From: Patescibacteria group bacterium
Lineage (GTDB): Bacteria > Patescibacteriota > Patescibacteriia > Patescibacteriales > GWC2-42-12
NCBI GenBank assembly: GCA_041653215.1
Contig: JBAZFW010000002.1
Coordinates: forward strand, 8,990-72,989
Length of the DNA stretch: 64,000 nt
Reading direction: 5' to 3'
Translations under genes and position numbers: made by a program
Notes under the pieces: generated by a model
Databases searched by the model: none
What the model saw: the letters and a program-made list of their open reading frames with translations, nothing else
Told to the model about the DNA's origin: nothing
Part shown: in pieces, positions 752-53,941 of the stretch
Numbering within the stretch: position 1 is the first letter of the stretch
Layout of the letters: each line of letters begins with the position of its first letter

Positions 752-888
752 TGTCATTGCGAGCGTTAGCGAGGCAATATCACGGACTATTTATTAAGTT
801 GATAGATTGTTTTTAAAAATAACTTTTATTTTAGAAAATTGTTTGTGAGATTGCCGCGTCGCCCGATTACGGGCTCCTCGCAATGACA
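752..888. repeat. Type-I palindromic element (tgtcattgcgagc...gcaatatcac / gtgagattgc...ctcctcgcaatgaca), 137 bp
   Basis: Terminal inverted repeats plus an inner inverted repeat. About 93% identical to the copy at 4349-4484. Confidence 0.85.
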
Positions 889-4348: not shown

Positions 4349-4484
4349 GTCATTGCGAGCGTTAGCGAAGCAATCTCACGGACTATTTATTAAATTTACA
4401 GATTGTTTTTAAAAATAACTTTCATTTTAGAAAAATGTTTGTGAGATTGCCGCGTCGCCTGATTACAGGCTCCTCGCAATGACA
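4349..4484. repeat. Type-I palindromic element, 136 bp
   Basis: tgtcattgcgagcgttagcgaagcaatctcac ... gtgagattgccgcgtcgcctgattacaggctcctcgcaatgaca. The tracked ATG at 4479 lies inside it. Confidence 0.85.
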
Positions 4485-4496
4485 TTATTATATATT

Positions 4497-5504
4497 ATGT
4501 TTATAAAACGGATCGGTATAGATCTAGGTACAACTTATACTTTAGTGCATTTGCCAAAAAGGGGCATTATTATTAATGAACCTAGCGTAGTGGCGATTTC
4601 TTTAATTGATAAAAAGATTTTAGCCGTAGGTAATGAAGCTAAAGACATGTTAGGCAGAACGCCTGATACTATTGTCGCGATTAAACCATTAAAAGACGGC
4701 GTCATCGCCGATTATCATACTACTGAAGCTATGCTTAGATATTTTATTAATAAAGCTTTAGGCGGTATTAGATTATTTAGACCGGAAGTTATGGTCGCCG
4801 TGCCGGCGGGGATTACTTCGACTGAACGCAGAGCGGTTATCGACGCTACCATCGCGGCCGGAGCCAGAGCGGCTTATATTATTAAAGAACCGATTGCCGC
4901 GGCTATCGGCGCTGATATTCCGATTGGTTCGGCTTCCGGACATATGATTATTGATATTGGCGGCGGCACGGCAGAAATGGCGGTAATTTCTTTAGGCGGA
5001 GTCGTTACTTCGACTTCGGTTAGGATTGGCGGTAATAAATTTGACGCGGCGATTCAGGAATTTATTAGACGAAAATATAATTTAGCCATCGGCGAAAGAA
5101 CGGCCGAAGAAATTAAAATTAAAATAGGTAGCGCCCTATATTTAGAAGATAAATTAACTATGGAGATAAGAGGCCGCGATATGATTACTGGATTACCTAG
5201 AAATATTACGGTTAATTCGGATGACGTTACCGAAGCGGTGCAAAACGAATTAGAAGCCATAATTAATGCCGCGAAAAGAGTGCTCCAGGATACTCCGCCG
5301 GAATTAGCCGCGGATATTATGGATAAAGGTATGGTTTTATCAGGTGGCAGTTCATTACTTAAAAATATTGATCAATTACTTTCACGCACAACCGATGTGC
5401 CGGCTTATGTGGCCGACGATGCTTTGCTTTGCGTTGCTAAAGGAACCGGCATTGCTTTAGAAAATTTGGACTCATATAAGAGAAGTATTTTTGCGACGAA
5501 ATAA
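4497..5504 (+). CDS. mreB: Rod shape-determining protein MreB
   Basis: Actin-fold motifs IGIDLGTTYT, DIGGGTAE and GMVLSGGSSLL. The start was moved to the ATG at 4497 (MFIKRIGIDLG) because 4479 is inside the repeat. Confidence 0.9.
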   Translation: MFIKRIGIDLGTTYTLVHLPKRGIIINEPSVVAISLIDKKILAVGNEAKDMLGRTPDTIVAIKPLKDGVIADYHTTEAMLRYFINKALGGIRLFRPEVMVAVPAGITSTERRAVIDATIAAGARAAYIIKEPIAAAIGADIPIGSASGHMIIDIGGGTAEMAVISLGGVVTSTSVRIGGNKFDAAIQEFIRRKYNLAIGERTAEEIKIKIGSALYLEDKLTMEIRGRDMITGLPRNITVNSDDVTEAVQNELEAIINAAKRVLQDTPPELAADIMDKGMVLSGGSSLLKNIDQLLSRTTDVPAYVADDALLCVAKGTGIALENLDSYKRSIFATK

Positions 5505-5509
5505 AATTG

Positions 5510-5528
5510 CCCCCTTTATTAAAGGGGG
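5510..5528 (+). terminator. GC hairpin after mreB
   Basis: ccccctttattaaaggggg forms an 8-bp stem with a 3-nt loop, 6 nt after the mreB stop. There is no clear T tract. Confidence 0.4.
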
Positions 5529-5546
5529 TTAGGAGGATTTGTATTT

Positions 5547-5627
5547 TGTCATTCCGGCCTTTGAGCCGAAGGCGAGCCGGAATCCAGAATTTTTTCTTTG
5601 TCATTCCCGCGCAGGCGGGAATCCAGG
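5547..5627. repeat. Two forward-oriented type-II half elements (tgtcatt-hairpin-ccag)
   Basis: 5547-5588 is tgtcattccggcctttgagccgaaggcgagccggaatccaga. 5599-5627 is tgtcattcccgcgcaggcgggaatccagg. Confidence 0.8.
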
Positions 5628-5643
5628 GGTAATATATAAAAAT

Positions 5644-7713
5644 ATGAAAAAAATTTACAAATCCGAAATTGAAGGTATGCAAGATTTTTGGCAAAAATTA
5701 GAAATATTGCCAGACTATTCCTGTAATACAGACGGAAAGATAAACGGAATATTATTTGAAATGAAATTAGAAATTAAATCTTATTCCGAAGTTGAAAAAC
5801 AAATAATAAGATATATTAGAGCATACAACACAATCGCAATGCCCATACCATCAAAAGCAATTGCGCTTGATATAAACCAAAGAAAATATAATTTATATAA
5901 TATTTCAACAAACAAGAACGGGGAGACATCGTTGCAAAAAATAAAAGAAGATTGTTGGGTTGATGCAACAGATTTCAAAGATTTAATAAATTCAACATTA
6001 AATCAATATTCGAAAGGCTGGATTTGTGAAGAAAGTATTGTTTCATATAACAATGAATACTGCAAGAAATATAAAAATGCTTCAAAAGAAAAGGTTAAAA
6101 TGGAGTTTATAAATCCACAAGAACTTTTTATATACTCATTTGATTGGGACGCACAATTGTCAATTGAGATGACAGATAGAGAGCAAAATAATTGGCTGAC
6201 ATTCAATATGAATATGCTTGGCTGTTCTTTGCTTAAAAAACAACTTGGAGCATATTTTACGCCTGATAAATATGTTAGAATTTCAACAAAATATTTAAAA
6301 GAATGTATTGAAAAAATCAAACAAGATGGATTTGATTATTTAATAATTGACACTTGCGCTGGAACAGGAAATTTAGAAAAGTTTTTTGAAACAGAATGGT
6401 TAGAAAGAACAATTTTAAATACTTATGATTATACGGAATGGACTACTCTAAAAGGGCTTTATGATGGAAGGGTTAAAATGATAATTCCTCATACAAGTAA
6501 GCATAGAAATGAAAAGGGGTTATTATTAGATGGGGATGCTTTGAGCAAAAAATTTAATGATTATTTACAAGATTGGATAGAAAAAAATGTTAATAGAAGT
6601 AAGTGTAAAATCATTATGTTAGAAAATCCACCTTTTGCAGAACCACAAGGAAACGCAAGCAAAGGACAAAAAACCTTTTCTGTAAAAGATATATACATAT
6701 ATCAGGAAATGGCTAAACATAAATTTGCAAAAAAGAATGCGAATAGAGACTTGGCAAATATGTTTATTTGGAAAGCATTTAATATCGTCAAAACAGATTA
6801 TTATATTCTTTACAGCCCTATTAAGTATTGGAAATCACAACATATAATAGACAAAAATTTTATAGAAGGGCATTGTTGTAATAGAGAATATTTTAATGCT
6901 AGTGAGGGTTGTATTACTCTTATATTGTGGAAAAACAAAGACAAAAAAAACAACTCTTTAAAATTAACAAACGATTTTAATGATAAAACTATAATATTAA
7001 AACAGTTTAAAAATCCAGCAGAGTTATTAGAAGATACAAAGCAAGAACCATTAGTTTATTTGTTTAATTTAAGTAATATACCCAAATCTGATAATGGAAA
7101 ATTAGTTAATAATATTGAAGCATATGCAAAATATTGCAAAACACAAAAAGCCTATAAACTTGGCGAGGACAATATTTTAAAACAATTGCCCTTGTGGGTT
7201 GCAAATTGCTATGAATACAAAAATTATACAGAAATGGATGTTATTATGAAATCTGCCGATGGTGGAACTAAATATCAAGAAGATGTAGAATTTTTGAAAA
7301 AATGTTTTATATGGTCTTGTATCACAAATAAAAATGTTTGTATTAGTAATGATAATATAGTAAATCAATTTTGTTTATATCAAAATACTAATACTGATAA
7401 AATATTAAAAAAAATGTTATTAGATATTGCGGATAAAGATTTATTGTCATCTTGGAATAAACTACTTATTAAAGTAAAAACAAAATCAGAATACCAATCT
7501 AATTATAAGTATGGTTTATATCAAATAGAAAAAGATATAAATATTGATATTGAATCAGGTAGAAAGGATAAAACTGGAAAAATGATTATGGTTAAGAAAT
7601 ATAATAATAGTGGCGATGTTGATGATTTAGTGAAACAAATTAAAAAACAATTAGCAAAATATCGAGAGGATTTTATTGAAAAAAAGTTATTTAAATATCA
7701 ATTATTGAAGTAG
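5644..7713 (+). CDS. Gamma-class N6-adenine DNA methyltransferase with N-terminal PD-ExK-like motif (candidate compact MmeI-like Type IIL/IIG restriction-modification enzyme)
   Basis: GAYFTPDKYV (motif X), LIIDTCAGTGNL (motif I) and NPPF at 6625-6636 (motif IV). The N-terminus has D30-x8-E39-M-K41 (TDGKINGILFEMK, nt 5731-5766). About 23-28% GC. The start was set at the ATG at 5644; the tracked TTG at 5539 reads through the repeats. Confidence 0.7.
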   Translation: MKKIYKSEIEGMQDFWQKLEILPDYSCNTDGKINGILFEMKLEIKSYSEVEKQIIRYIRAYNTIAMPIPSKAIALDINQRKYNLYNISTNKNGETSLQKIKEDCWVDATDFKDLINSTLNQYSKGWICEESIVSYNNEYCKKYKNASKEKVKMEFINPQELFIYSFDWDAQLSIEMTDREQNNWLTFNMNMLGCSLLKKQLGAYFTPDKYVRISTKYLKECIEKIKQDGFDYLIIDTCAGTGNLEKFFETEWLERTILNTYDYTEWTTLKGLYDGRVKMIIPHTSKHRNEKGLLLDGDALSKKFNDYLQDWIEKNVNRSKCKIIMLENPPFAEPQGNASKGQKTFSVKDIYIYQEMAKHKFAKKNANRDLANMFIWKAFNIVKTDYYILYSPIKYWKSQHIIDKNFIEGHCCNREYFNASEGCITLILWKNKDKKNNSLKLTNDFNDKTIILKQFKNPAELLEDTKQEPLVYLFNLSNIPKSDNGKLVNNIEAYAKYCKTQKAYKLGEDNILKQLPLWVANCYEYKNYTEMDVIMKSADGGTKYQEDVEFLKKCFIWSCITNKNVCISNDNIVNQFCLYQNTNTDKILKKMLLDIADKDLLSSWNKLLIKVKTKSEYQSNYKYGLYQIEKDINIDIESGRKDKTGKMIMVKKYNNSGDVDDLVKQIKKQLAKYREDFIEKKLFKYQLLK

Positions 7714-7742
7714 TAGATAATTGTAACGTTAAAATATTATCA

Positions 7743-7811
7743 CCCCTGGATTCCGGCTCGGAGGCCGGAATGACAAAAAAATTCTGGATTCCTGCTTTCG
7801 CAGGAATGACG
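7743..7811. repeat. Two reverse-oriented type-II half elements (ctgg-hairpin-aatgaca)
   Basis: 7743-7775 is cccctggattccggctcggaggccggaatgaca. 7783-7811 is tctggattcctgctttcgcaggaatgacg. Both are in inverted orientation relative to 5547-5627. Confidence 0.8.
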
Positions 7812-7819
7812 AAAAAAAA

Positions 7820-9115
7820 TTGAAATTTATGTTAATCGGCATTGACGCCTCGCGCGCCAACAGACAATTTAAAGGCGGAACAGAATGGTATTCTTATTAT
7901 TTAATAAGAGAACTGGCTAAAATTGATTCTAAAAATCAATATATTTTATATACGGATAAACCTTTGACTGGCGGTTTAGCTGATTTAACTAATGAAAATC
8001 ATTTTGCCAAGCCCGGTAAAATTGATAAACATGGCTGGCCCGCTTCGACTCGTCGATGGCGAGGCGAGCAGGAAGTTAAAAGTCCGTTTGGAAATTTTCG
8101 CGTTAAAATTTTAAAATGGCCTTTTATTTATTTTTGGACACAAATTAGATTATCTTATGAAATGTTCGTTCATCCGGCGGACATTCTTTTTGTTCCGGCC
8201 CATACTTTACCGGTTATTCATCCGAAAAAATCAATCGTTACGATTCATGACATAGGTTTTGAACGTTTCGCTAAACTTTATAGTTCGGATAAAATCGGCC
8301 CGACTTCCAGATCTATTAATTTTTTAATTAAACTGTTTACTCTTGGTAAATTACATCCTGACGTTATTAGCCATCATACTTGGTCTACTAAATATGCGCT
8401 TAAACACGCTGAAATAATTATTTCGGTTTCAGAATTTACTAAACAAGAAATGGTTGATTTTTATAAAGCTGACGCGGAAAAAATTAAAGTCGTGCATAAC
8501 GGCTTTAATAATGAACTTTACCGCCCGATTAATGACAGGGAAAAAATAAAACAAGTTTTAGATAAATATGATATTAAAACTCCTTATATTTTTTATGTCG
8601 GTCGGTTAGAAAAAAAGAAAAATACCGCTATGTTAGTTAATGCTTACGCGATTATGAGGCAAAAATATAAAGACATAAAACATAAATTAGTTTTAGTCGG
8701 TAAGTCCGGGCTTGGTTTTGATGAAGTTAAATATGTTATTAATGAATTTAATCTTGATGAAGAGGTGATTATAACCGGCTGGGTGCCGGAAGCTGATATG
8801 CCTTATATTCATAACGGCGCTGCTTTATTTGTTTTTCCTTCGCTTTACGAAGGCTTTGGCATACCGTTAGTTGAAGCTATGGCTTCGGGCGTACCGATTG
8901 CAGCTTCAAATATTGCATCCATCCCGGAAGTTGTTAAAGATTCGGCTTTGCTTTTTAATCCAAACGATAAAGAAGATATGGCGGAAAAAATGGCAAAAAT
9001 ATTATTAGATAAGCAACTAGCCGATGAATTAATTAATAGGGGATTTAAACGAGCTAAAGATTTTAGCTTAACTAAATGCGCTCAGGAAATATTAGCATTA
9101 ATAGAAAAGATGTAA
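7820..9115 (+). CDS. Glycosyltransferase family 4
   Basis: GT-B/GT4 C-terminal signature PSLYEGFGIPLVEAMASGVPIAASN. Paralog of 21339-22505. The tracked start is TTG; an in-frame ATG is at 7829. Confidence 0.85.
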   Translation: MKFMLIGIDASRANRQFKGGTEWYSYYLIRELAKIDSKNQYILYTDKPLTGGLADLTNENHFAKPGKIDKHGWPASTRRWRGEQEVKSPFGNFRVKILKWPFIYFWTQIRLSYEMFVHPADILFVPAHTLPVIHPKKSIVTIHDIGFERFAKLYSSDKIGPTSRSINFLIKLFTLGKLHPDVISHHTWSTKYALKHAEIIISVSEFTKQEMVDFYKADAEKIKVVHNGFNNELYRPINDREKIKQVLDKYDIKTPYIFYVGRLEKKKNTAMLVNAYAIMRQKYKDIKHKLVLVGKSGLGFDEVKYVINEFNLDEEVIITGWVPEADMPYIHNGAALFVFPSLYEGFGIPLVEAMASGVPIAASNIASIPEVVKDSALLFNPNDKEDMAEKMAKILLDKQLADELINRGFKRAKDFSLTKCAQEILALIEKM

Positions 9116-19437: not shown

Positions 19438-21181
19438 AATTAAAAATTGGTTTAAAAAATATTGGCGCATAATTATTATAACTATAGCGGCTATCTGTTT
19501 TTTTATTGGCACAGCTAGTTTTAATTATTTTACGCAATCAGCTGATTTTGTTAAATGGCTGTCGCCGGACGAATCGGCTAATTATAATTTTACAAAACTT
19601 TACGCCCAAGAAGGCGAGCTAATGTTTTTTGAAAGATATAATATTTTAGCTCACGATATAATTCATCCTAGGAGCATTAGAAGCGATTTTGGTTATTTAA
19701 AACCGGTAAGTTTTTTAGGTATTATTTTAATCTACGGGAAAATCGCTAGTTTAACTACCTATAAAATTATACCTTATTTAACTCCGCTGTTCGCCGCTCT
19801 AGCGATTATTTTTTATTATTTATTAATTAAAGAAATTTTTGGCAAACGCAACGCTTTAATTTCAGCTTTAATTTTAAGCGTTTTCCCGCCCCTGGTTTAT
19901 TATAGCGCCCGCAGCATGTTTCATAACGTATTATTCGTTGTTTTACTTATAATCAGTCTTTATTTCGCTTGTTTATCGGTAAAAAAGAAAGAAAAATTAA
20001 CGAATACAAGTAAGGTAAAAACCGCGATGATAGATATCTTGCCGGATTTATTCGCCGGTTTAAGCGGCATTTTTTTAGGCTTAACCATCACAACTCGTTC
20101 ATCAGAATTAATTTGGTTAGCCCCGGTTTCCTTAATTATTTGGTTGTTTAATATTAAAAAGTTTGGCTTTATTAAGCCGTTGATTTTTATTGCTTGTTTA
20201 TTTTTTGCTCTTACGCCCGCTATGTATTGGAATAAAATATTATATCAATCATATTGGCGCGGCGGTTATAACGAAATGAACCAGTCTATTATAAATATCG
20301 CCGGCGCTAGCTCAAATATTTTAAAAAGCGGGGTGGTAAATTCCGAAGCGATTAAAAACAGTTTAGCAGAAATAAAAAATAATTTTTTTCATTTTGGCTG
20401 GCAGCCGTATAAAAGTTTAAAGATGCTTTACTTTTATTTTGCTAAAATGTTTTATTGGATTTTCTGGCCGGCTCTTTTTGGCTTTTTGCTTTTATTTTCA
20501 AAAATAAAAAAGTGGCGAGCTAAGCATTATGTTTATTTAATTGCTTTATTTACCGCCGCAGCGATTTTAATATCTTATTATGGCAGTTGGGATTTTCATG
20601 ATAACCCAGACCCTAAAAGCCGCACCATCGGTAATTCTTATACTCGTTATTGGCTGCCGATTTATCTAGGCGCTATTCCTTTGGCCGTTATCTTTTTAGT
20701 AAAGCTATCAAATGTACTAAAGAAAAAAATATTAATTTATAGTTTCCGTATCTTAATGATTTTATTGGTATTTTTTATTTCCATTAGATTTGTTTTAATC
20801 GGCTCCGAAGAAGGTCTAATAAAAACGGCTAAAACACAGCTAACGGTTCGCGCTGAATATGAACAAGTATTAAAATTAACTGAAAATAACAGCGTTATTG
20901 TTACTCAATATCATGACAAATTATTGTTCCCAGCCAGAAAAGTGATTGTTGGTTTATTTGACGATCCTAATATGACGAAAGAATATGCGGTTTTAGCTAA
21001 AAAATTACCAGTTTATTACTATAATTTTACTTTTCCAGAGAAAGATATTAATTATTTAAATAATAAAAAATTGCCTGAATTTAATTTAAAGATAGAGGCC
21101 GTGGAAAAAGTTACTAAATATTTTACGCTATATAGATTAGAGAATGTAGAATTACCTGTCATTGCGAGCGAAACGAAGTGA
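19427..21181 (+). CDS. GT-C fold glycosyltransferase (ArnT/PMT_2-like)
   Basis: Polytopic protein with an acidic first-loop motif SPDESANY. The start was set at the ATG at 19427 (MKYKIKNWFKKYW). The last 8 codons and the TGA stop come from the repeat at 21157. Confidence 0.5.
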   Translation: MKYKIKNWFKKYWRIIIITIAAICFFIGTASFNYFTQSADFVKWLSPDESANYNFTKLYAQEGELMFFERYNILAHDIIHPRSIRSDFGYLKPVSFLGIILIYGKIASLTTYKIIPYLTPLFAALAIIFYYLLIKEIFGKRNALISALILSVFPPLVYYSARSMFHNVLFVVLLIISLYFACLSVKKKEKLTNTSKVKTAMIDILPDLFAGLSGIFLGLTITTRSSELIWLAPVSLIIWLFNIKKFGFIKPLIFIACLFFALTPAMYWNKILYQSYWRGGYNEMNQSIINIAGASSNILKSGVVNSEAIKNSLAEIKNNFFHFGWQPYKSLKMLYFYFAKMFYWIFWPALFGFLLLFSKIKKWRAKHYVYLIALFTAAAILISYYGSWDFHDNPDPKSRTIGNSYTRYWLPIYLGAIPLAVIFLVKLSNVLKKKILIYSFRILMILLVFFISIRFVLIGSEEGLIKTAKTQLTVRAEYEQVLKLTENNSVIVTQYHDKLLFPARKVIVGLFDDPNMTKEYAVLAKKLPVYYYNFTFPEKDINYLNNKKLPEFNLKIEAVEKVTKYFTLYRLENVELPVIASETK

Positions 21182-21335
21182 AGCGAAGCAATCCCTGGTA
21201 AGCCCAGAAAAACAAAAAATTAGCAAACACTACTTTAAAATAAATTCAGACTAACTCTAGGCATTTTAAAAAATAATTAAATTTTGTGCCATCAAACCGG
21301 AGATTGCTTCGTCGCTGGCGCTTCTCGCAATGACA
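21157..21335. repeat. Type-I palindromic element, 179 bp (long spacer)
   Basis: tgtcattgcgagcgaaacgaagtgaagcgaagcaatccc ... ggagattgcttcgtcgctggcgcttctcgcaatgaca. Confidence 0.8.
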
Positions 21336-21338
21336 AAT

Positions 21339-22505
21339 ATGAATACAAAAAAAATAAATCGTATCGGCATAGACGCTCGGTTTTACGGCCCAATAGGCAA
21401 GGGGTTGGGTAGATATACCCAGGAAGTTGTTGATAACATAATAAAGCTTGATCAAAAAAATAAGTACATTATATTTTTGCGTAAAGAAAATTTTTCTGAT
21501 TTTAAATGTGATGGCGTAAGAATAAAAAAAGTATTAGCTGATATAAAGTGGTATGGTTTAAGCGAGCAAATAATTTTTCCTTTTTACATTCTTCGCGAGC
21601 GCTTAGATTTAATGCATTTTCCGCATTTTAATGTACCGATTTTTTGCCCAGTTAAATTTATCGTTACCATCCACGATTTAATTTTAATAAAATTCCCGAC
21701 TTTGCGGGCCACTACTTTAGGGCCGGTCGTTTACAAAATAAAAAATTTAGCTTATAAAATTGTGATTTCATTAGCGGTTAAGCGAGCTATGAAAATTTTA
21801 GCGGTTTCAGAATATACGAAAAAAGCTGTCGTCGAACAATTTAAAGTTGATTCTAAAAAAGTTGTTGTAACTTATGAAGGCGTAGCAAATTTGTCTGTCA
21901 TTTCGAGCGTCAGCGAGAAATCGCTTGTAGACGAAAGCCTCTCGCATAAGGGATTTCTTCCTTCGGTCGAAATGACAAAAAATTATCTTCTTTATGTCGG
22001 TAACGGTTATCCGCATAAAAATTTAGAAGGTTTAATAAAAGTTTTTTCTGAAATAAGTAAAGCTAAACCAGAATTAAAATTAGTCTTAGTCGGCAAAGAA
22101 GATTATTTTTACAGCCGATTAAAACAATACGCTAAAAATTTTTCAAACAATATTATTTTTCCTGGCTATGTCATGGATAGTAAGTTAAAGGAATTATACG
22201 CTAACGCGACTCTTTATATTTTCCCTTCTTTTTATGAAGGTTTTGGTTTGCCGCCGTTAGAAGCTATGGCGCATGGTTTAGCGGTCGTTAGTTCCGATAA
22301 AACTTGCTTACCGGAAATACTTGGCGACGCTGCTTTATATTTTAATCCCGAGGATGAAATGGATATGAAAAATAAGATTGAGCAAGGATTAGCAGATGAA
22401 AAATTACGCGAAGATTTAATAAATAGGGGATATGAACAAATCAAAAAGTATAGTTGGGTAGACTGCGCGGAAAAAACTTTAGAAGTTTATAAAAGTTGTT
22501 TATAA
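21339..22505 (+). CDS. Glycosyltransferase family 4 (carries an in-frame palindromic element)
   Basis: RIGIDARFYG at the N-terminus and PSFYEGFGLPPLEAMAHGLAVVSSD at the C-terminus. The start was moved to the ATG at 21339, just outside the upstream repeat. Confidence 0.85.
   Translation: MNTKKINRIGIDARFYGPIGKGLGRYTQEVVDNIIKLDQKNKYIIFLRKENFSDFKCDGVRIKKVLADIKWYGLSEQIIFPFYILRERLDLMHFPHFNVPIFCPVKFIVTIHDLILIKFPTLRATTLGPVVYKIKNLAYKIVISLAVKRAMKILAVSEYTKKAVVEQFKVDSKKVVVTYEGVANLSVISSVSEKSLVDESLSHKGFLPSVEMTKNYLLYVGNGYPHKNLEGLIKVFSEISKAKPELKLVLVGKEDYFYSRLKQYAKNFSNNIIFPGYVMDSKLKELYANATLYIFPSFYEGFGLPPLEAMAHGLAVVSSDKTCLPEILGDAALYFNPEDEMDMKNKIEQGLADEKLREDLINRGYEQIKKYSWVDCAEKTLEVYKSCL
21896..21977. repeat. 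Type-III palindromic element (tgtcatttcgagcg...cgaaatgaca) inside the CDS, read through in frame
   Basis: tgtcatttcgagcgtcagcgagaaatcgc ... gggatttcttccttcggtcgaaatgaca. It is translated as SVISSVSEKSLVDESLSHKGFLPSVEMT. Confidence 0.8.
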
Positions 22506-22647: not shown

Positions 22648-23661
22648 ATGGAAATAAAGAAAATAATCATCCCAAATAAACCTCATTTGGACCCGATCGT
22701 TGCTGTTTATTTATTAAAGCAATATGGTCAAAATGTTTTTAATGGCATTAAAGATGCTGAGATTATTTTTTGGGAACATAGCCATGATCCTTCCAATGAA
22801 GAAATTGTAAAATTTAAAGAACAGGGGATTTTGTCAGTCGACGTGGGCGGCAGTATGTTTGATCATCATAATAATAATTTTGACGGTAAAAAAGAAACAG
22901 CTTCTTCTTTAGTAGCTGCTTATTTAAATATAGAAACAAATCCGGAAATTAATGCATTATTAAATTATGTCAGAGAAGATGATTTAGAGGGCTTGCATAA
23001 TCGTTATGGCGATTTGGCGTATTTAATAAAATGTTTTCACAAGCAAAATTTACCGTCGACAAAAGTTGTTGAACTAGGCCTAAGGATGATAAATTATTTT
23101 CAGACCTCGCAAATTGACTGGCATTTAAATGTTAAAAAAGAATATGAAGATAAAACAAAGATTTATAAAGTTAAAAGATTCGACAAAAAATTAAAAGTTG
23201 GCGTGGTTGAATCTGACAATTCGCAATTAGCTAATTACGGTATAACTATGGATAATTTAGCCGTGGTTGTACAAAAACATTCAAACGGCCAAGTAATGAT
23301 CTTAACTAATAAAAATCAACGCCTTAACATAAAGGAAATTGTAGCCGCCATAAGATTAAGAGAACTAGAATTAGGCGGTTATAATAAATCAATTGATCCG
23401 GCTAAATTGCAGTTTGAAGGTAAAAATTCTTTAATTCCAAATTGGTTTTATCATAAAAGTTTAAACGCTTTTTTAAACGGTTCTCATGCTTTAAATAAAG
23501 TTGAACCGACTAAAGTTAAATTTAGCGAAATTGTTTCTTTTGTTTGGAATGGTTTAAGTTCAGAACATTCAGAATATTGCGATTGCGATCAAGGCGGTTT
23601 AAGTTGCCCGTTTGTTAAATACGGTTTTAGCAAATGCAAAAGCAGAAAATTTAACAACTAA
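22648..23661 (+). CDS. MYG1/UPF0160-like metal-dependent hydrolase with Cys-rich C-terminal tail
   Basis: PHLDPIVAVYLL, VDVGGSMFDHH and REDDLEG resemble the FHxDE, VDVGG..DHH and DxxDNG motifs of MYG1-family proteins (recalled, not searched). The C-terminus is EYCDCDQGGLSCPFVKYGFSKC. Confidence 0.45.
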   Translation: MEIKKIIIPNKPHLDPIVAVYLLKQYGQNVFNGIKDAEIIFWEHSHDPSNEEIVKFKEQGILSVDVGGSMFDHHNNNFDGKKETASSLVAAYLNIETNPEINALLNYVREDDLEGLHNRYGDLAYLIKCFHKQNLPSTKVVELGLRMINYFQTSQIDWHLNVKKEYEDKTKIYKVKRFDKKLKVGVVESDNSQLANYGITMDNLAVVVQKHSNGQVMILTNKNQRLNIKEIVAAIRLRELELGGYNKSIDPAKLQFEGKNSLIPNWFYHKSLNAFLNGSHALNKVEPTKVKFSEIVSFVWNGLSSEHSEYCDCDQGGLSCPFVKYGFSKCKSRKFNN

Positions 23662-23797
23662 ATAAGGATTTAAGCAATCTTTTGTTTATTAAATTTAGTA
23701 AATAGAAGATTGCGAATAAATCGCAACGGTCTTTTAAAGAAAAGGACGCATAAGCGTCAAAAAATACAACAATAAATTATTTCGAGGAGGATTTAGG

Positions 23798-24466
23798 ATG
23801 GATAACAAGGAAAAGGTTGTTTTGAAGGCTGAAGTGCTGGCGTCGGGCAAAGGATGTCCGGTATGCGGTGGGGAAAAAACGGAAAAAGCAAAAACTTGTA
23901 GACCATGCTTGACGAACATAGGTTCCGCGGCCACCAAGGCGGTTAACGCAATTGCTGAGGTGTCTTGCGATGCTCTTTTCGCCAATGCGATGGCTAACAG
24001 CGGCGACGTGGTCAGAGGTACAGTCTGGGGTCCATTTTTGGCTAATACCAGAATCGACATAGATGCCAAGTTCACCCCAGCGAAAAATGACATCGGCGCC
24101 CACTGGCATTGTAAGAGAGGCGTGCCTGGCGGATATATGTCAATTTTTATCTTCGGTGATAACCTTAAGGCCGGTCAGGAAGTCTGCGGTTTAGCAGAGT
24201 TGAAGATAAAGCATGCGCTTATCAAAGACAAGAATGGCAAAGTAATTAATAAAAAGCTCGTGCATTATATGCGCATGCAAACAGTGGAAGGCGTCAAGTC
24301 CGACTTCCGTCTGTCGGTTCTTGAGCCACAGGAAATTGATAGATTAAGACATGATTATCTACAGGCCACTGTGGTGCGGAACGATGGCTATGATTTCGCC
24401 GTCGGTTTTCTGCCAATGAAAAACGGCAAACGCGAAGAAGATGAGAAAATTGCGGCAACCGTGTAG
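23798..24466 (+). CDS. Orphan GC-rich protein with N-terminal CxxC...CxxC zinc-ribbon-like motif
   Basis: A 222-codon open frame at about 42-55% GC. AGGAGG at 23785-23790 lies 7 nt upstream of the ATG. The N-terminus reads GCPVCGGEKTEKAKTCRPC. I recognise no family. Confidence 0.7.
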   Translation: MDNKEKVVLKAEVLASGKGCPVCGGEKTEKAKTCRPCLTNIGSAATKAVNAIAEVSCDALFANAMANSGDVVRGTVWGPFLANTRIDIDAKFTPAKNDIGAHWHCKRGVPGGYMSIFIFGDNLKAGQEVCGLAELKIKHALIKDKNGKVINKKLVHYMRMQTVEGVKSDFRLSVLEPQEIDRLRHDYLQATVVRNDGYDFAVGFLPMKNGKREEDEKIAATV

Positions 24467-24560: not shown

Positions 24561-24683
24561 AACACTTTCCAGCTTTCTATATTTTATGTTATAATAATGT
24601 TAATAAATAACTAACTGCGCCATCTATATTATTATATGGTGCATAAGTTTTTTAAATATAAATAAATTTACTATTTTTTGTTC

Positions 24684-24727
24684 GTGAGATTGCTTCGTCG
24701 CCTGGTTGCAGGCTTCTCGCAATGACA
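24684..24727. repeat. Solo right half of a type-I element
   Basis: gtgagattgcttcgtcgcctggttgcaggcttctcgcaatgaca, with no matching left half upstream. Confidence 0.75.
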
Positions 24728-24740
24728 TTTGAATAAATAA

Positions 24741-27437
24741 ATGACTTTAAATAAATTCCAAAATTTAAAAGTTAACCCTGGCGCGAAATCGTCTCGTTTT
24801 GTTATAGATTTAAAAAAAGATTTAGTGGAAAATGAAGGCGTTAAGGAGATAAAAAAGCGAAATATAGAGACAAAAATAGAGGAGAAATTAGAAAAATTAT
24901 CCGAAATTAATTATAAGGGCGTATTTAAAAAAGGTAAGAAAAAAAGCGGAGTTTATTTTTCTAGTTTAGCAAAAACGCTAAAACCTCAGGCCTTTTTATT
25001 TAATAAGAACGCTGCTTTAAAATTACCCGCGGTAAAAACTAATAATGGGTTGTTTGATCAGCTAGCGCTTATCGGCTTAGGAAAATTATTGTATATTGTT
25101 TTAAAAAATATTTTTATTTTATTCTATAAAGTTTGCTACGCAGCCGGTTGGTTAATAATGTTCATTTTAAGGTTAGTTTATTTTTCACTTTTAGCCATAA
25201 TAAAACCGTTCGCAAAAATATTATATCTTTTGTCTATTAAATTGCATTTAGCTACGAATAAGGTTTTAAGGGATGTACCGCAAAATTACCATATGAAACA
25301 GGCTGTGGCTGTTTCGGTTTTTGCGAAATTACTTCACTCTGCCAAAAAGAAAAAAACCAGCGAGCAAAGCGATGAAAAGTTTGTTTCTGATAATAAAATT
25401 ATAGAAGATTCTCAAGCCGGTTTATTAAAGCCAGTTTTAGTTTTTGCTGGGATTTTATTAGCGATAATTCTTCCGGTTAAAGCTTTTACTTATTATAAGG
25501 TTATAGATACCGCTAAAGGCAAAGTTTTGGGCGCTAGCGAGAGCGCTATGGGTGATTTAATTTCTGCCGGTCAATCGGCCTTAGGTTTAAATTTTAATCA
25601 GGCCGGACAGAGTTTTAAAAATGCTAGTAATAATTTTTTAAACGCGCAAGCTGAACTTGAAAAAATTAATGGTCTAATATTTTCTATAGCCTCGATTTTA
25701 CCTGATAAAAATATGCAATTGGCGGCGGCCAGTAAAAATATTTTACGCGCTGGCGAAGCAAGCGCTAACGCGGGAAAAAATTTGAGCTTAGCCATGGAAA
25801 GCCTTTTTAGTTATAAAGAAAATAGCACTGATAGTATTTTAGAAAATTTAAGTTTGCATGGGCATAATGCTATAAATAATTTAAACGAATTAAATGAGTC
25901 GTTAAATCAAATAAATAGCGAGGTTATCCCGGAAGATTATCAAAAACAATTTATTTTATTAAAACAAAAAGCTGATGAACTTAATCGCGGTTTAAAAGAA
26001 TTTATTGGACTAGTCGATAGCTTAGGAGATTTTTTGGGAACTAGCATGGATAAACGTTATTTATTAGTTTTTCAAAATAATTCCGAATTGCGTGCTTCAG
26101 GCGGTTTTATTGGCAGTTTTGCTTTAATAGATTTTTCTAAAGGTGAAATAAAAAATATAGAAGTGCCTGGCGGGGGCAGTTATGACACTGAGGCTGGTTT
26201 TTTAAAAAAAATAAAAGCCCCAGAAGCTTTAAGTTTAGTTAGATCTGATTGGCATTTTTGGGACGCTAACTGGTGGCCTGATTGGCCGACCTCGGCGAAA
26301 AAACTCGCTTGGTTTTACGAAAATTCTGATGGTTCAACGGTTGATGGTGTAATTAGTTTTACACCAACGGTGATTGAAAATTTATTAAAAATAATTGGCC
26401 CAATAGATCTAAGAGATAAATATGGTTTAGTTATTGACGCTGATAATTTTTGGCTGGAAACGCAAAAATTGGCCGAGCAAAAACCAGATATAACTAAAGA
26501 ACCTAAAAAGATAATTGGCGATTTAATGAATAAAATTATTGAGGAGTTGCCTAAACGATTAAACAAAGACAATTTAGTGCCTTTATTTAAAATGATTGAA
26601 GAATCGCTATCTAGTAAAAACATTTTATTTTATTTTACGGATGAAAATTTAGAAGCTAAAGTTGATGATTTAGGTTGGAGCGGCAGAATTAAAAACACGA
26701 CTGGTGATTATTTAAGCGTGGTTAATTCTAATATCGCCGGCGGTAAGAGCGATCGAAAAATTAAACAACAAATTGTCCATCAAGCCGAGGTTCAACCGGA
26801 TGGCTCAATTATTGATAATTTAATTATTAGACGCGCTCATGAAGCAGTAAATCGCGAACCATTTTCTGGCGTTAGAAACGTTAATTGGTTAAGAATCTAT
26901 GTGCCGCTTGGCTCTGAATTATTAGAAGTCGACGGCTTTAAACCGGTGGATAAAATATTTTTTGACAAAGAGATCACTGGTTTAACTAACGATCCGGAAG
27001 TTTTAGCTAGCGAAGGTCAAGCGCAAACCGACGAATCAAGCGGTACAAAAATTTATAACGAGTTTAATAAAACCGTTTTTGCTAATTGGTCGCAATTAGA
27101 CCCGGGAGAAACTATTGAAATTAAAATAAAATATAAACTACCTTTTAAACTAACCGATAAAAAACAGCCGGCCGGTCAAGAATTTACAAATCAGTTGCTT
27201 GAAAAATTTGGCTCAATTTTGAACCCAGATGAGAAAAATTTATATTCATATTCTTTGCTAGTGCAAAAACAACCAGGCATGAATTCATCGACTATAGAGA
27301 GTGAGTTAAGGCTAGGCGATAACTTTAACTCAATTTGGCAATATCCGAATAATTTAAATTCTAGTTTAAATGGCTGGTCAATAACCGAAGATTTAAATCA
27401 AGATCAAATAATGGCGATAATGGCAGAAGAAAAATAA
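24741..27437 (+). CDS. DUF4012-family membrane protein (large paralog)
   Basis: TM helices in the N-terminal third, then FQNNSELRASGGFIGSFALIDFSKGE. It is collinear with 2330-4339 (WPDWPTSAKK, LFYFTDENLE, LLVQKQPG). Confidence 0.7.
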   Translation: MTLNKFQNLKVNPGAKSSRFVIDLKKDLVENEGVKEIKKRNIETKIEEKLEKLSEINYKGVFKKGKKKSGVYFSSLAKTLKPQAFLFNKNAALKLPAVKTNNGLFDQLALIGLGKLLYIVLKNIFILFYKVCYAAGWLIMFILRLVYFSLLAIIKPFAKILYLLSIKLHLATNKVLRDVPQNYHMKQAVAVSVFAKLLHSAKKKKTSEQSDEKFVSDNKIIEDSQAGLLKPVLVFAGILLAIILPVKAFTYYKVIDTAKGKVLGASESAMGDLISAGQSALGLNFNQAGQSFKNASNNFLNAQAELEKINGLIFSIASILPDKNMQLAAASKNILRAGEASANAGKNLSLAMESLFSYKENSTDSILENLSLHGHNAINNLNELNESLNQINSEVIPEDYQKQFILLKQKADELNRGLKEFIGLVDSLGDFLGTSMDKRYLLVFQNNSELRASGGFIGSFALIDFSKGEIKNIEVPGGGSYDTEAGFLKKIKAPEALSLVRSDWHFWDANWWPDWPTSAKKLAWFYENSDGSTVDGVISFTPTVIENLLKIIGPIDLRDKYGLVIDADNFWLETQKLAEQKPDITKEPKKIIGDLMNKIIEELPKRLNKDNLVPLFKMIEESLSSKNILFYFTDENLEAKVDDLGWSGRIKNTTGDYLSVVNSNIAGGKSDRKIKQQIVHQAEVQPDGSIIDNLIIRRAHEAVNREPFSGVRNVNWLRIYVPLGSELLEVDGFKPVDKIFFDKEITGLTNDPEVLASEGQAQTDESSGTKIYNEFNKTVFANWSQLDPGETIEIKIKYKLPFKLTDKKQPAGQEFTNQLLEKFGSILNPDEKNLYSYSLLVQKQPGMNSSTIESELRLGDNFNSIWQYPNNLNSSLNGWSITEDLNQDQIMAIMAEEK

Positions 27438-27444
27438 AAGCATC

Positions 27445-27560
27445 TGTCATTGCGAGGAGGAGCGATAGCGACGACGAAGCAATCTCCGGTTCAATGGCAC
27501 ATATGCTGATTTTAACCAGAGATTGCTTCGTCGCCTGATTACAGGCTTCTCGCAATGACA
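27445..27560. repeat. Type-I palindromic element, 116 bp
   Basis: tgtcattgcgaggaggagcgatagcgacgacgaagcaatctcc ... agagattgcttcgtcgcctgattacaggcttctcgcaatgaca. Confidence 0.85.
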
Positions 27561-52165: not shown

Positions 52166-52247
52166 TGTCATTCCGGCCTTGAGCCGGAATCCAGATTAAG
52201 GCGGTAATAACTTGTTTCTGGATTGCGGGTCGGAGCCCGCAATGACA
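52166..52247. repeat. Complete type-II element (82 bp)
   Basis: tgtcattccggccttgagccggaatccaga, a 21-bp spacer, then tctggattgcgggtcggagcccgcaatgaca. Confidence 0.85.
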
Positions 52248-53833: not shown

Positions 53834-53941
53834 TGTCATTGCGAGGAGCGTAGCGACGAAGCAATCTCACGGACAACAATTTTTTACCCAAACTTGCCAT
53901 TAGTGAGATTGCTTCGCTCCCGCTGGTCGCTCGCAATGACA
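53834..53941. repeat. Type-I palindromic element, 108 bp
   Basis: tgtcattgcgaggagcgtagcgacgaagcaatctcac ... gtgagattgcttcgctcccgctggtcgctcgcaatgaca. Confidence 0.85.

What the first reader, a model, noticed from the sequence alone, without database searches (positions are those of the whole stretch)
5547..7811. AT-rich MmeI-like nuclease/methyltransferase gene lying between the separated arms of a palindromic element
In intact type-II elements (52166-52247 and 12576-12649), a left arm tgtcatt-hairpin-ccaga is separated from a right arm tctgg-hairpin-aatgaca by only 13-21 bp.

Here two left arms (5547-5588, 5599-5627) and two right arms (7743-7775, 7783-7811) are in the same relative orientation but 2.1 kb apart. 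The interval holds a single ORF of about 23-28% GC by hand counts, clearly lower than its neighbours, inserted between mreB and a glycosyltransferase gene.

The ORF carries gamma-class N6-adenine methyltransferase motifs in the order X (GAYFTPDKYV), I (IIDTCAGTGNL), IV (NPPF). It also has an N-terminal D-x8-E-M-K motif (TDGKINGILFEMK). As far as I recall, the MmeI endonuclease motif is D-x9-E-x-K in the context ..GILLIEMK, which this resembles.

This suggests a compact (689 aa) single-chain Type IIL/IIG restriction-modification enzyme carried as cargo of, or inserted into, a repeat element.
Basis: partly seen in the sequence, partly recalled or inferred. Interest (0 to 1): 0.7.

Follow-up and report, generated by a model that had tools for sequence, protein, structure and literature searches.

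The report
Restriction gene in hairpin-flanked swap site
A horizontally acquired gene for an unannotated, unusually small one-protein restriction-modification enzyme sits between mirror-image hairpin repeats in a chromosomal slot where related ultra-small bacteria carry other restriction systems or nothing.

Summary
A 689-aa ORF (5644-7713, 26% GC against 36% in neighbouring genes) lies between two left and two right hairpin arms, downstream of mreB and upstream of a GT4 glycosyltransferase gene.

The protein matches nothing in Pfam, NCBIfam, PADLOC or PDB sequences. A confident AlphaFold model finds BpuSI (Type IIG) and MmeI (Type IIL) as best structural matches. D30-x8-E39-x-K41 and the gamma-class N6-adenine methyltransferase motifs X, I and IV are invariant across 65 homologues. 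It belongs to a large unannotated family (about 700 clusters at 50% identity) found as a lone gene in defence islands.

The "cargo of the repeat element" idea is only partly right. Copies 77-95% identical occur in unrelated genomes without arms, and DNA similarity stops within 7 bp of the ORF ends.

The arms are NTS/dRS3-type repeats known from Neisseria. In relatives, the same arm-bounded mreB-GT4 slot holds an Eco47II system, an MvaI/BcnI system, a GmrSD enzyme or transposases with other genes. Three other relatives have neither insert nor arms.

This is a Neisseria-style "minimal mobile element" site for restriction cassettes in a Patescibacteria lineage. How cassettes enter is inferred, not shown.

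The parts
4497..5504 (+). mreB, the conserved left flank of the slot
   Evidence: Pfam MreB_Mbl, E 1.9e-134. It is 95-99% identical in L006, L078, L142 and L153.
5510..5528 (.). GC-rich hairpin after mreB (CCCCCTTTATTAAAGGGGG), terminator-like
   Evidence: Only terminator-like site found in 5400-7900; the scan reports it on the minus strand, where the stem is followed by a T-rich tail. Its role for mreB (+) is assumed.
5547..5588 (+). Outer left arm L1, an NTS-like hairpin with a long loop. Its inner flank CCAGAATTTTTT pairs with the inner flank of R1.
   Evidence: (I3).
5599..5636 (+). Inner left arm L2 with its inner extension. TGTCATTCCCGCGCAGGCGGGAATCCAG is the canonical NTS/dRS3 repeat; GGGTAATATA is the extension.
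   Evidence: One mismatch to the N. meningitidis NTS consensus, and it matches the published SRM pattern (PMC11893778). The same arm is present in L078.
5644..7713 (+). 689-aa single-chain restriction-modification enzyme of Type IIG/IIL architecture (predicted)
   Evidence: AF2 pLDDT 90.7. Foldseek gives BpuSI E 8.5e-7 and MmeI E 1.7e-6. 501 full-length homologues carry no Pfam domain.
5731..5766 (+). PD-ExK nuclease motif D30-x8-E39-x-K41
   Evidence: Invariant in 65 sequences. D lies at the start of beta-2 and ExK at the end of beta-3, as described for MmeI.
6247..6276 (+). Methyltransferase motif X, GAYFTPDKYV
   Evidence: A203, F205, T206 and P207 are invariant.
6343..6375 (+). Methyltransferase motif I (SAM binding), IIDTCAGTGNL
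   Evidence: D236, A239 and L244 are invariant; C238, G240, T241, G242 and N243 are at least 90% conserved.
6625..6636 (+). Methyltransferase motif IV (catalytic), NPPF
   Evidence: E327, N328, P329 and P330 are invariant.
7738..7775 (-). Inner right arm R2 with inner extension TATCACCCCTGG, the mirror of L2
   Evidence: (I2, I4). Its hairpin equals the left-arm hairpin of L006.
7783..7811 (-). Outer right arm R1, an NTS-like repeat
   Evidence: Two mismatches to the NTS consensus, forming a compensating stem pair. It is orthologous to arm Rb of L143.
7829..9115 (+). GT4 glycosyltransferase, the conserved right flank of the slot
   Evidence: Pfam Glycos_transf_1 and Glyco_transf_4. Orthologues were used to recover the slot in relatives.
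12550..12675 (.). Cargo-free nested element. A type I palindrome (GTCATTGCGAG...CTCGCAATGAC) encloses an intact type II doublet (12576-12649).
   Evidence: z -6.55. Its arm pair matches the pair that flanks the Eco47II system in L006.
52166..52247 (.). Cargo-free type II doublet (NTS-like left arm, 21-nt spacer, right arm)

Best explanation
The ORF at 5644-7713 most likely encodes a self-contained restriction-modification enzyme built like Type IIG/IIL enzymes.
- Residues 1 to about 120 form a PD-ExK nuclease (D30, E39, K41).
- A helical connector follows (about 120-200).
- Next is a gamma-class N6-adenine methyltransferase (about 200-400; motifs X, I, IV).
- The last 290 residues or so are a probable DNA-recognition domain.

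The inferred action is that it recognises a short site, methylates an adenine there to protect the host, and cuts unmethylated DNA.

The gene arrived by horizontal transfer as little more than the bare ORF. It now occupies a variable slot between mreB and a GT4 gene in a Falkowbacteria-like Patescibacteria lineage. Nested, mirror-image NTS/dRS3-type hairpin repeats bound the slot. Relatives carry other restriction systems there.

I infer turnover as at Neisseria minimal mobile elements. Taken-up DNA replaces the resident cassette by homologous recombination in the conserved flanks (mreB, GT4 and the arms). New cassettes first enter by illegitimate joining in the central part of the palindrome.

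Shown: the anatomy, the fold, motif conservation, the foreign origin of the gene, and the different occupants of the slot. Inferred: enzyme activity and the route of insertion or exchange.
For: Enzyme.
- The AF2 model has pLDDT 90.7.
- The top Foldseek hits are BpuSI and MmeI, followed by M.BseCI, LlaGI, HsdM and M.TaqI.
- D30, E39, K41, F205-T-P207, D236, A239 and E327-N-P-P330 are invariant in 65 sequences at 41-95% identity.
- The secondary-structure order and motif placement match the MmeI description.
- Homologues are lone genes next to Thoeris, Shedu, Dnd, Gabija-like and AbiT genes.

Foreign origin.
- GC is 0.263 against 0.361.
- 94%, 85% and 79% nucleotide identity to copies in three unrelated contexts, aligned only over window 5637-7718.

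Slot.
- L006/L135/L136 carry Eco47II REase plus C5 MTase between arms.
- L153 carries N6_N4 MTase plus MvaI/BcnI REase between perfect 38-nt inverted arms inside a type I element.
- L078 has a left arm identical to the window's L2, followed by a GmrSD gene.
- L143-L152 carry an ORF similar to the candidate defence family PDC-S05 and, where the contig reaches (L143, L144), transposases, then two right arms.
- L140 has a right arm next to an unknown cargo.
- L142, L007 and L008 are empty and lack arms.
- Cargo GC is below flank GC in every occupied locus.

Arms. They match NTS/SRM repeats (PMC11893778). The minimal mobile element concept is described in PMC3898611.
Against: - No sequence method links the protein to any known nuclease or methyltransferase family.
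- The isolated N-terminal domain gives only weak fold matches; the best is E 0.0099, and putative restriction-endonuclease folds score E 0.02-0.1.
- Activity, recognition site and methylation are untested.
- No clear promoter lies upstream.
- No cargo-free copy of the inner (GGGGTAATA-type) element was found at this site, so insertion into a pre-existing doublet is not directly shown.
- Arm hairpin sequences differ between orthologous loci. That could mean the arms travel with the cargo.
- Empty sites lack arms altogether, so arms and cargo may come and go together.
Confidence: 0.6

Rival explanations
1. The arms are the terminal inverted repeats of a non-autonomous transposon (a MITE or mobile insertion cassette). 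This transposon carries the restriction gene as a passenger and is moved in trans by a hairpin-recognising enzyme, such as a Y1 (IS200/RAYT-type) transposase or an Ssn-type nuclease.
For: - L153 has perfect 38-nt inverted arms.
- Arm hairpins differ between orthologous loci, as if they were replaced together with the cargo.
- Empty sites lack arms.
- A Y1_Tnp gene lies in the L143 slot.
- Short intact doublets are scattered in the genome like MITEs.
- Furuta et al. describe RM genes with transposon-like inverted repeats.
Against: - Every arm-cargo-arm unit recovered sits at the same mreB-GT4 site.
- None was seen elsewhere.
- There are no target-site duplications. The flanks simply continue the palindrome (TTTT-GTCATT...AATGAC-AAAA).
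- Close copies of this gene elsewhere have no arms or inverted repeats.
- No Y1 transposase or GIY-YIG Ssn-like ORF was found in the 64-kb window (these are weak tests).
Confidence: 0.2
2. The four arms are independent NTS-type repeats. They accumulated in the new intergenic spaces on either side of an incoming gene, as repeat arrays do around variable genes in Neisseria. There is no structural relationship between arms and gene.
For: - NTS repeats are known to cluster around genes in an NTS-gene-NTS layout.
- The genome carries many such repeats in intergenic regions.
- The gene does not need the arms.
Against: - The mirror symmetry extends beyond the hairpins into the inner flanks, for both the inner and outer pairs (I3 and I4).
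- The same nested order recurs in relatives with other cargos, and the outer arm is orthologous between the window and L143.
- A cargo-free nested version exists at 12550-12675.
- Only half-elements flank the cargo, never whole doublets.
Confidence: 0.1
3. The protein is only an orphan DNA (or other) methyltransferase. Its N-terminal domain is a non-catalytic or DNA-binding module, so there is no restriction activity.
For: - The isolated N-terminal domain has no significant structural match.
- Some family members lack the N-terminal 180 residues entirely, as in the nuclease-less MmeI-like group.
Against: - D30, E39 and K41 are invariant across 41-95% identity, and the spacing and strand placement match those described for MmeI.
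- The weak fold hits that do appear are restriction-endonuclease-like folds (6okh region, 9y1l, 3ot2, 3ijm).
- The gene sits in defence islands and in a slot otherwise filled by restriction systems.
Confidence: 0.15

Closest known systems
MmeI family (Type IIL) and BpuSI (Type IIG) single-chain restriction-modification enzymes
   Same: - Same domain order: N-terminal PD-ExK nuclease, helical connector, gamma-class N6-adenine methyltransferase, C-terminal recognition domain.
- They are the best structural matches.
- There is no companion methyltransferase gene.
- The family also has nuclease-less members, as the MmeI family does.
   Different: - 689 aa, against the 749-870-residue MmeI and BpuSI chains in the PDB.
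- D-x8-ExK rather than D-x9-ExK.
- No detectable sequence similarity: the Pfam MmeI and N6_Mtase models and PDB sequence profiles are all silent.
- Cleavage distance, strand of methylation and recognition site are unknown.
NTS / dRS3 / Ssn-related motif (SRM) hairpin repeats of Neisseria and other bacteria (PMC11893778)
   Same: - L2 matches CGTCATTCCCGCGMAVGCGGGAATCYRG with one mismatch, and R1 with two.
- The repeats are oriented hairpins, intergenic, and arranged as NTS-gene-NTS around a variable gene.
   Different: - The host is a Patescibacteria genome, a group that the paper does not mention.
- The repeats form nested mirror-image doublets with conserved inner extensions.
- No ssnA-like GIY-YIG gene was seen in the window (a weak test).
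Neisseria minimal mobile elements (Saunders & Snyder 2002, as summarised in PMC3898611)
   Same: [quoted passage not shown] Here five different occupants, one partly seen occupant and three empty sites were found.
   Different: - This slot is sharply bounded by inverted hairpin arms.
- It is filled mostly by restriction systems.
- Exchange by homologous recombination alone is not shown.
[quoted passage not shown]
   Same: Both show a compact RM unit between inverted repeats, and replacement of one RM type by another at the same locus.
   Different: That survey removed high-copy repeats. Here the repeats are a genome-wide hairpin family, no target duplication is seen, and the gene itself moves without the repeats.
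REP doublets (REPINs/BIMEs) and RAYT loci, where a Y1 transposase gene lies between inverted REPs
   Same: Both have short oriented hairpins, inverted doublets with a short spacer, and a gene lying between inverted copies. This analogy is drawn in PMC11893778.
   Different: The gene between the arms is a restriction enzyme, not the enzyme that acts on the repeats. A Y1 transposase was seen only in one relative's slot.

Membership tests
MmeI family (Type IIL) | Sequence similarity to MmeI over the whole length (Morgan et al. used E < 1e-20) | tested here: not met
   No Pfam MmeI_* or N6_Mtase hit. There were no PDB-sequence hits with the single sequence or the 65-sequence profile, although MmeI 5hr4 is in the PDB. 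Ten distant family members also have no Pfam hit.
MmeI family (Type IIL) | N-terminal PD-ExK motif aligned with D70, E80 and K82, with D at the start of beta-2 and ExK at the end of beta-3 | tested here: inconclusive
   D30-x8-E39-x-K41 is invariant and correctly placed on the predicted strands. The spacing is one residue shorter. The domain-only fold search gives only weak nuclease-like hits.
MmeI family (Type IIL) | Cuts about 20 nt from the site and methylates one strand only | not testable with these tools
   This needs biochemistry or a methylome.
Type IIG (nuclease and methyltransferase in one polypeptide) | One chain containing both a nuclease domain and a gamma-class N6-adenine methyltransferase domain with motif order X-I-IV | tested here: met
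   The whole-chain structural matches are BpuSI and MmeI at probability 1.00. The motifs are invariant and in the order X (202-211), I (234-244), IV (328-331). Catalysis is not tested.
Type IIG (nuclease and methyltransferase in one polypeptide) | No separate methyltransferase or specificity gene is required | tested here: met
   The gene is alone between the arms here. In L001-L003 and L011-L015 no consistent partner gene is present.
NTS / dRS3 / SRM repeats | Match to the NTS consensus or SRM pattern, including the oriented 5' GTCAT and 3' ATCYRG flanks around the hairpin | tested here: met
   L2 has 1 mismatch and R1 has 2. SRM regex gives 2 hits against 0.02 expected. The other arms are stem and loop variants.
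NTS / dRS3 / SRM repeats | A cognate GIY-YIG Ssn nuclease gene in the genome, typically flanked by the repeats | tested here: inconclusive
   A motif regex over six-frame ORFs of the window and related loci found none. Only 64 kb of the genome was available and the test is crude.
Minimal mobile element (MME) | A site between two conserved genes that holds different whole-gene cassettes in different strains | tested here: met
   Between mreB and GT4 the occupants are: a IIG-like gene (window); ORF148 plus an Eco47II system (L006); an MvaI/BcnI system (L153); GmrSD (L078); ORF174 plus transposases (L143). L142, L007 and L008 are empty.
Minimal mobile element (MME) | Incorporated solely by homologous recombination in the flanks | not testable with these tools
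   This would need population-level recombination analysis or transformation experiments.
MITE / mobile insertion cassette (non-autonomous transposon with passenger) | Terminal inverted repeats plus target-site duplication, with copies at several sites | tested here: not met
   Inverted arms are present. The flanks show no direct duplication. All cargo-bearing units are at one site. The gene occurs elsewhere without arms.

The most novel reading that the evidence does not exclude
NTS-type hairpin doublets act as a dedicated docking site for defence cassettes. A hairpin-specific enzyme (an Ssn-like single-strand nuclease or a Y1 transposase) opens the centre of the doublet, so that arm-less restriction genes can be inserted or swapped. 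This would be a cassette-exchange mechanism distinct from integrons, transposons and plain homologous recombination. Separately, the 689-aa protein would found a new, very compact family of active single-chain restriction enzymes.
Probability: 0.15. Interest if true: 0.85.

Novelty: new variant of a known kind. Interest (0 to 1): 0.55.

Why it matters
Two things follow if this holds.

First, about 700 protein clusters (at 50% identity) are currently labelled "hypothetical" and are invisible to Pfam, NCBIfam and PADLOC. They span Mollicutes, Firmicutes, Patescibacteria and others. They would be a new family of very small one-protein restriction-modification enzymes. That would fill a gap in defence-system annotation and give a compact scaffold for specificity engineering of the MmeI kind.

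Second, NTS/dRS3 repeats were only recently tied to control of DNA uptake in Neisseria. Here they bound a restriction-cassette exchange site in ultra-small Patescibacteria. This extends that biology to a distant phylum. It also gives a concrete locus, with five different occupants and empty alleles, for testing how hairpin repeats shape gene exchange.

Tried and rejected
- **Sequence searches.** Pfam, NCBIfam, PADLOC, PHROGs and PDB-sequence searches with the single protein, and a PDB-sequence search with the 65-sequence profile, gave nothing significant. The weak Terminase_6C hit (E 0.0046, below cut-off) was ignored.
- **Distant members.** Ten distant family members were scanned with Pfam in the hope of a bridge to a known family; none had a hit.
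- **N-terminal domain.** A fold search with the domain alone gave only weak hits.
- **Metagenome scan.** The scan for the inner arm end (GGAATCYAGGGGTRATA) returned mostly chance matches. Only 4 of 119 loci had a real arm.
- **MreB look-up.** An exact-sequence look-up of the window's MreB found no record.
- **Other proteins.** The 746-aa protein in the L143 slot is unrelated to the 689-aa family.
- **Trans-acting enzymes.** A search for Ssn-like GIY-YIG ORFs (regex) and for a Y1 transposase (tblastn) in the window found none.
- **Flanking repeats elsewhere.** No inverted repeats flank the gene in L001-L003.
- **Phages and plasmids.** tblastn found only 27%-identical "hypothetical" genes on Limosilactobacillus plasmids and nothing in phages.
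- **Integron idea, rejected.** The junctions between arms and cargo fall at different points in different loci, and whole palindromes are not regenerated on each side.
- **IS200/IS605 idea, rejected.** Those elements have end hairpins in direct, not mirror, orientation.
Full report
**What is in the sequence**

An ORF runs from ATG 5644 to the stop at 7713 (689 aa) on the + strand. It lies between mreB (4497-5504) and a GT4 glycosyltransferase gene (7829-9115). Its GC content is 0.263, against 0.361 for the flanking genes.

The pattern GTCATTCCNGC...GGAATCCAG occurs twice upstream on the + strand (5548-5587, 5600-5626) and twice downstream on the - strand (7746-7774, 7784-7810). A fifth copy lies at 52167. 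No matches appear in 100 shuffles.

The symmetry goes beyond the hairpins. The inner flank of the outer pair is CCAGAATTTTTT / AAAAAATTCTGG. The inner flank of the inner pair is CCAGGGGTAATA / TATCACCCCTGG. The layout is therefore nested: L1[L2[gene]R2]R1.

Each arm folds as a single-strand hairpin. Cargo-free doublets lie at 52166-52247 and at 12576-12649. The second is itself nested inside a longer palindrome, GTCATTGCGAG...CTCGCAATGAC, at 12550-12675.

**The protein**

No sequence method recognises it. Pfam, NCBIfam, PADLOC, PHROGs and PDB sequences (single sequence or 65-sequence profile) gave nothing significant.

It nevertheless has 501 full-length homologues of about 650-700 aa. None carries a Pfam domain and all are named "hypothetical". 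Named sources include Mycoplasma, Williamsoniiplasma, Clostridia and Christensenellaceae records and an Endozoicomonadaceae MAG. An exhaustive profile search finds 696 clusters at 50% identity, 193 of them with E <= 1e-30. Some of these lack the first 180 residues or so. Ten distant members also have no Pfam hit.

In a 65-sequence alignment at 41-95% identity, the following residues are invariant:
- T29, D30, E39 and K41
- A203, F205, T206 and P207 (motif X)
- D236 and A239 (motif I)
- E327, N328, P329 and P330 (motif IV)

An AlphaFold2 model is confident (pLDDT 90.7, pTM 0.84). Its best PDB matches, in order:
- BpuSI, Type IIG: E 8.5e-7, 558 columns
- MmeI, Type IIL: E 1.7e-6, 752 columns
- then lmo1582, M.BseCI, LlaGI, HsdM and M.TaqI

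The N-terminal secondary structure is alpha-beta-beta-beta-alpha-beta-beta-beta-alpha. D30 lies at the start of strand 2 and E39-x-K41 at the end of strand 3. This is the placement reported for D70, E80 and K82 of MmeI (PMC2731913).

Modelled alone, the N-terminal 180 residues give a very confident model (pLDDT 95.6) but only weak fold matches. Several of those are restriction-endonuclease-like folds: 9y1l, 3ot2 and 3ijm, at E 0.02-0.1. I therefore treat the methyltransferase as well supported. The nuclease is probable but unproven.

Homologues are lone genes in defence islands:
- next to ThsB-TIR, a resolvase, SduA and DndB in L011
- next to integrases, a Gabija-like OLD/UvrD pair, AbiTii and Fic in L014 and L015

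This fits a self-contained defence enzyme.

**The gene does not travel with the arms**

Proteins 95%, 87% and 77% identical are encoded in three unrelated contexts:
- L001, between a MazG-like gene and an AhpC gene
- L002, in a phage/IS-like region
- L003-L005, next to a TonB-dependent receptor gene

Nucleotide identity is 94%, 85% and 79%. The aligned region is only window 5637-7718, which is the ORF plus at most 7 bp upstream and 5 bp downstream. None of these copies has arms or any other flanking inverted repeat.

**The slot**

Orthologues of the flanking genes show what the arms do bound.

| Locus | Similarity to window | Between mreB and GT4 |
|---|---|---|
| L006 (also L135, L136) | about 91% DNA identity; MreB 99.4% | 148-aa ORF; left arm GTCATTCCGGCCTCCGAGCCGGAATCTAGGGGTAAATA; Eco47II-family endonuclease; MerR-fused C5 methyltransferase; right arm |
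| L153 | GT 79% | N6_N4 methyltransferase plus MvaI/BcnI endonuclease, between arms that are perfect 38-nt inverted copies; the arms lie inside the two ends of a type I palindrome |
| L078 | MreB 95% | left arm identical to the window's L2, then a GmrSD-type gene, then the end of an IS256-like transposase gene |
| L143-L152 | GT 76% | 174-aa ORF with a weak PADLOC PDC-S05 match; in L143 also a Y1 transposase, a 746-aa unknown protein and an IS256-like transposase; then two right arms and a type I right end |
| L140 | GT 82% | right arm beside an unknown cargo; the contig breaks there |
| L142, L007, L008 | GT 80%, 75%, 32% | short mreB-GT spacers with no insert and no arms |

The L153 layout is the cargo-bearing counterpart of window 12550-12675. 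In L143, the outer right arm matches the window's R1.

The inner arm extensions are shared by all occupied loci: CYAGGGGTAA(A)TA on the left and its near-complement on the right. The point at which the cargo begins differs from locus to locus. Cargo GC is lower than flank GC in every occupied locus. Several contigs break at this site, as expected for a region that varies within populations.

**What the arms are**

L2 (TGTCATTCCCGCGCAGGCGGGAATCCAG) matches the Neisseria Transformation Sequence consensus, CGTCATTCCCGCGMAVGCGGGAATCYRG, with one mismatch. R1 matches with two mismatches that form a compensating stem pair. The published degenerate SRM pattern hits the window twice, against 0.02 expected.

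NTS repeats contain the classical dRS3 repeat (ATTCCC-N8-GGGAAT). The GIY-YIG nuclease SsnA cleaves them in single-stranded DNA, and they modulate integration of transforming DNA. They surround variable genes in an NTS-gene-NTS layout and occur in many bacteria (PMC11893778). dRS3 arrays are also proposed recombination substrates and phage integration sites (PMC3898611).

Neisseria also provides the concept that fits the slot, the minimal mobile element. This is a site between two conserved genes that holds different whole-gene cassettes in different strains, exchanged by homologous recombination. Furuta et al. documented RM genes between inverted repeats and allelic substitution of RM systems (PMC2853133).

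**Mechanism and rivals**

My preferred reading (confidence 0.6) has three parts:
- The gene encodes an active, compact Type IIG/IIL-like enzyme.
- It was acquired as a bare ORF.
- It occupies an MME-like restriction-cassette slot whose borders are nested NTS-type repeats. Exchange goes through the conserved flanks, and first entry is by illegitimate joining in the centre of the palindrome.

The variable cargo junctions, the single chromosomal site, the lack of target duplications and the arm-less copies elsewhere all favour this over a transposon model, which I put at 0.2. That model is kept alive by four observations:
- the perfect arms in L153
- arm sequences that differ between orthologous loci
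- the absence of arms at empty sites
- a Y1 transposase in one slot

The other two rivals are less likely. Independent accumulation of four repeats (0.1) fits poorly with the mirror symmetry of the inner flanks and the conserved nesting. An orphan methyltransferase (0.15) is possible but does not explain the invariant D/ExK.

No Ssn-like gene or Y1 transposase was found in the window. These are weak tests on 64 kb only.

**Novelty**

The components are of known kinds: Type IIG/IIL architecture, NTS/dRS3 repeats and MME-type sites. Three things are new:
- a large, unannotated and very compact sequence family of such enzymes
- canonical NTS repeats in Patescibacteria
- their arrangement as nested mirror-image borders of a slot filled mostly by restriction systems

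I rate it a new variant of a known kind, with interest 0.55.

Noticed in passing
window 753-887, 4349-4483, 12550-12675, 13703-13807, 21158-21334, 27446-27559, 53835-53940: A second family of MITE-like palindromic elements, 105-177 bp long (GTCATTGCGAG...GCAATCTC...GAGATTGC...CTCGCAATGAC), fills intergenic spaces. The 12-mer pattern gave 23 matches against 1.6 expected. One copy (12550-12675) encloses a type II doublet.
   Followed up: partly
window 21897-21976, inside the glycosyltransferase ORF 21330-22505: A palindromic element (GTCATTTCGAGC...TCGAAATGAC) lies inside a coding region, and the ORF reads through it (peptide ...SVISSVSEKSLVDESLSHKGFLPSVEMTKN...). This resembles the in-frame Rickettsia palindromic elements.
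   Followed up: no
window 24683-24726 and 54981-54992: Solitary right halves of type I elements have no obvious left partner nearby. The first precedes a second DUF4012 gene (24741-27437). The interval 22648-24466 holds genes I did not examine.
   Followed up: no
L006 3279-3307 and 3756-3784: A 148-aa ORF of unknown function is flanked by a perfect 29-nt inverted repeat. The left copy includes the last codons and stop codon of mreB, and the right copy runs into the left arm. This could reflect an inverted target duplication or an invertible segment.
   Followed up: partly
L143 455-4252: In one relative the slot holds a Y1 (IS200-type) transposase, a 746-aa protein with no Pfam or PADLOC match, and an N-terminally short IS256-like transposase. 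The end of the same transposase gene also follows the GmrSD gene in L078.
   Followed up: partly
Family of the 689-aa protein (e.g. P0129, P0166, P0169): Many family members of 450-540 aa start at about profile position 180-190. They therefore lack the putative nuclease domain, which parallels the nuclease-less MmeI-like group described in PMC2731913.
   Followed up: no
Limosilactobacillus reuteri plasmids NZ_CP054661.1 and LN906636.1 (about 9 kb): Distant homologues of the 689-aa protein (27% identity, 89% coverage) take up about a quarter of these small plasmids and are annotated as hypothetical.
   Followed up: no
L034 and L133 (metagenome contigs, GC 0.42-0.43): NTS-like hairpins are followed by the same CCAGGGGTRATA extension and, about 10 nt later, a degenerate right end without a hairpin. 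These may be short cargo-free relatives of the inner element in other organisms.
   Followed up: no
window 5437-5694, minus strand: An 85-aa ORF spans the left arms (…WIPACAGMTKKKFWIPARLRLKGRNDK…). It is the kind of spurious peptide that these repeats generate in gene calls.
   Followed up: no
L007 5875-5993: An assembly gap (a run of N) has the start of the GT gene duplicated on both sides. This is a scaffolding artefact at exactly the variable site.
   Followed up: no
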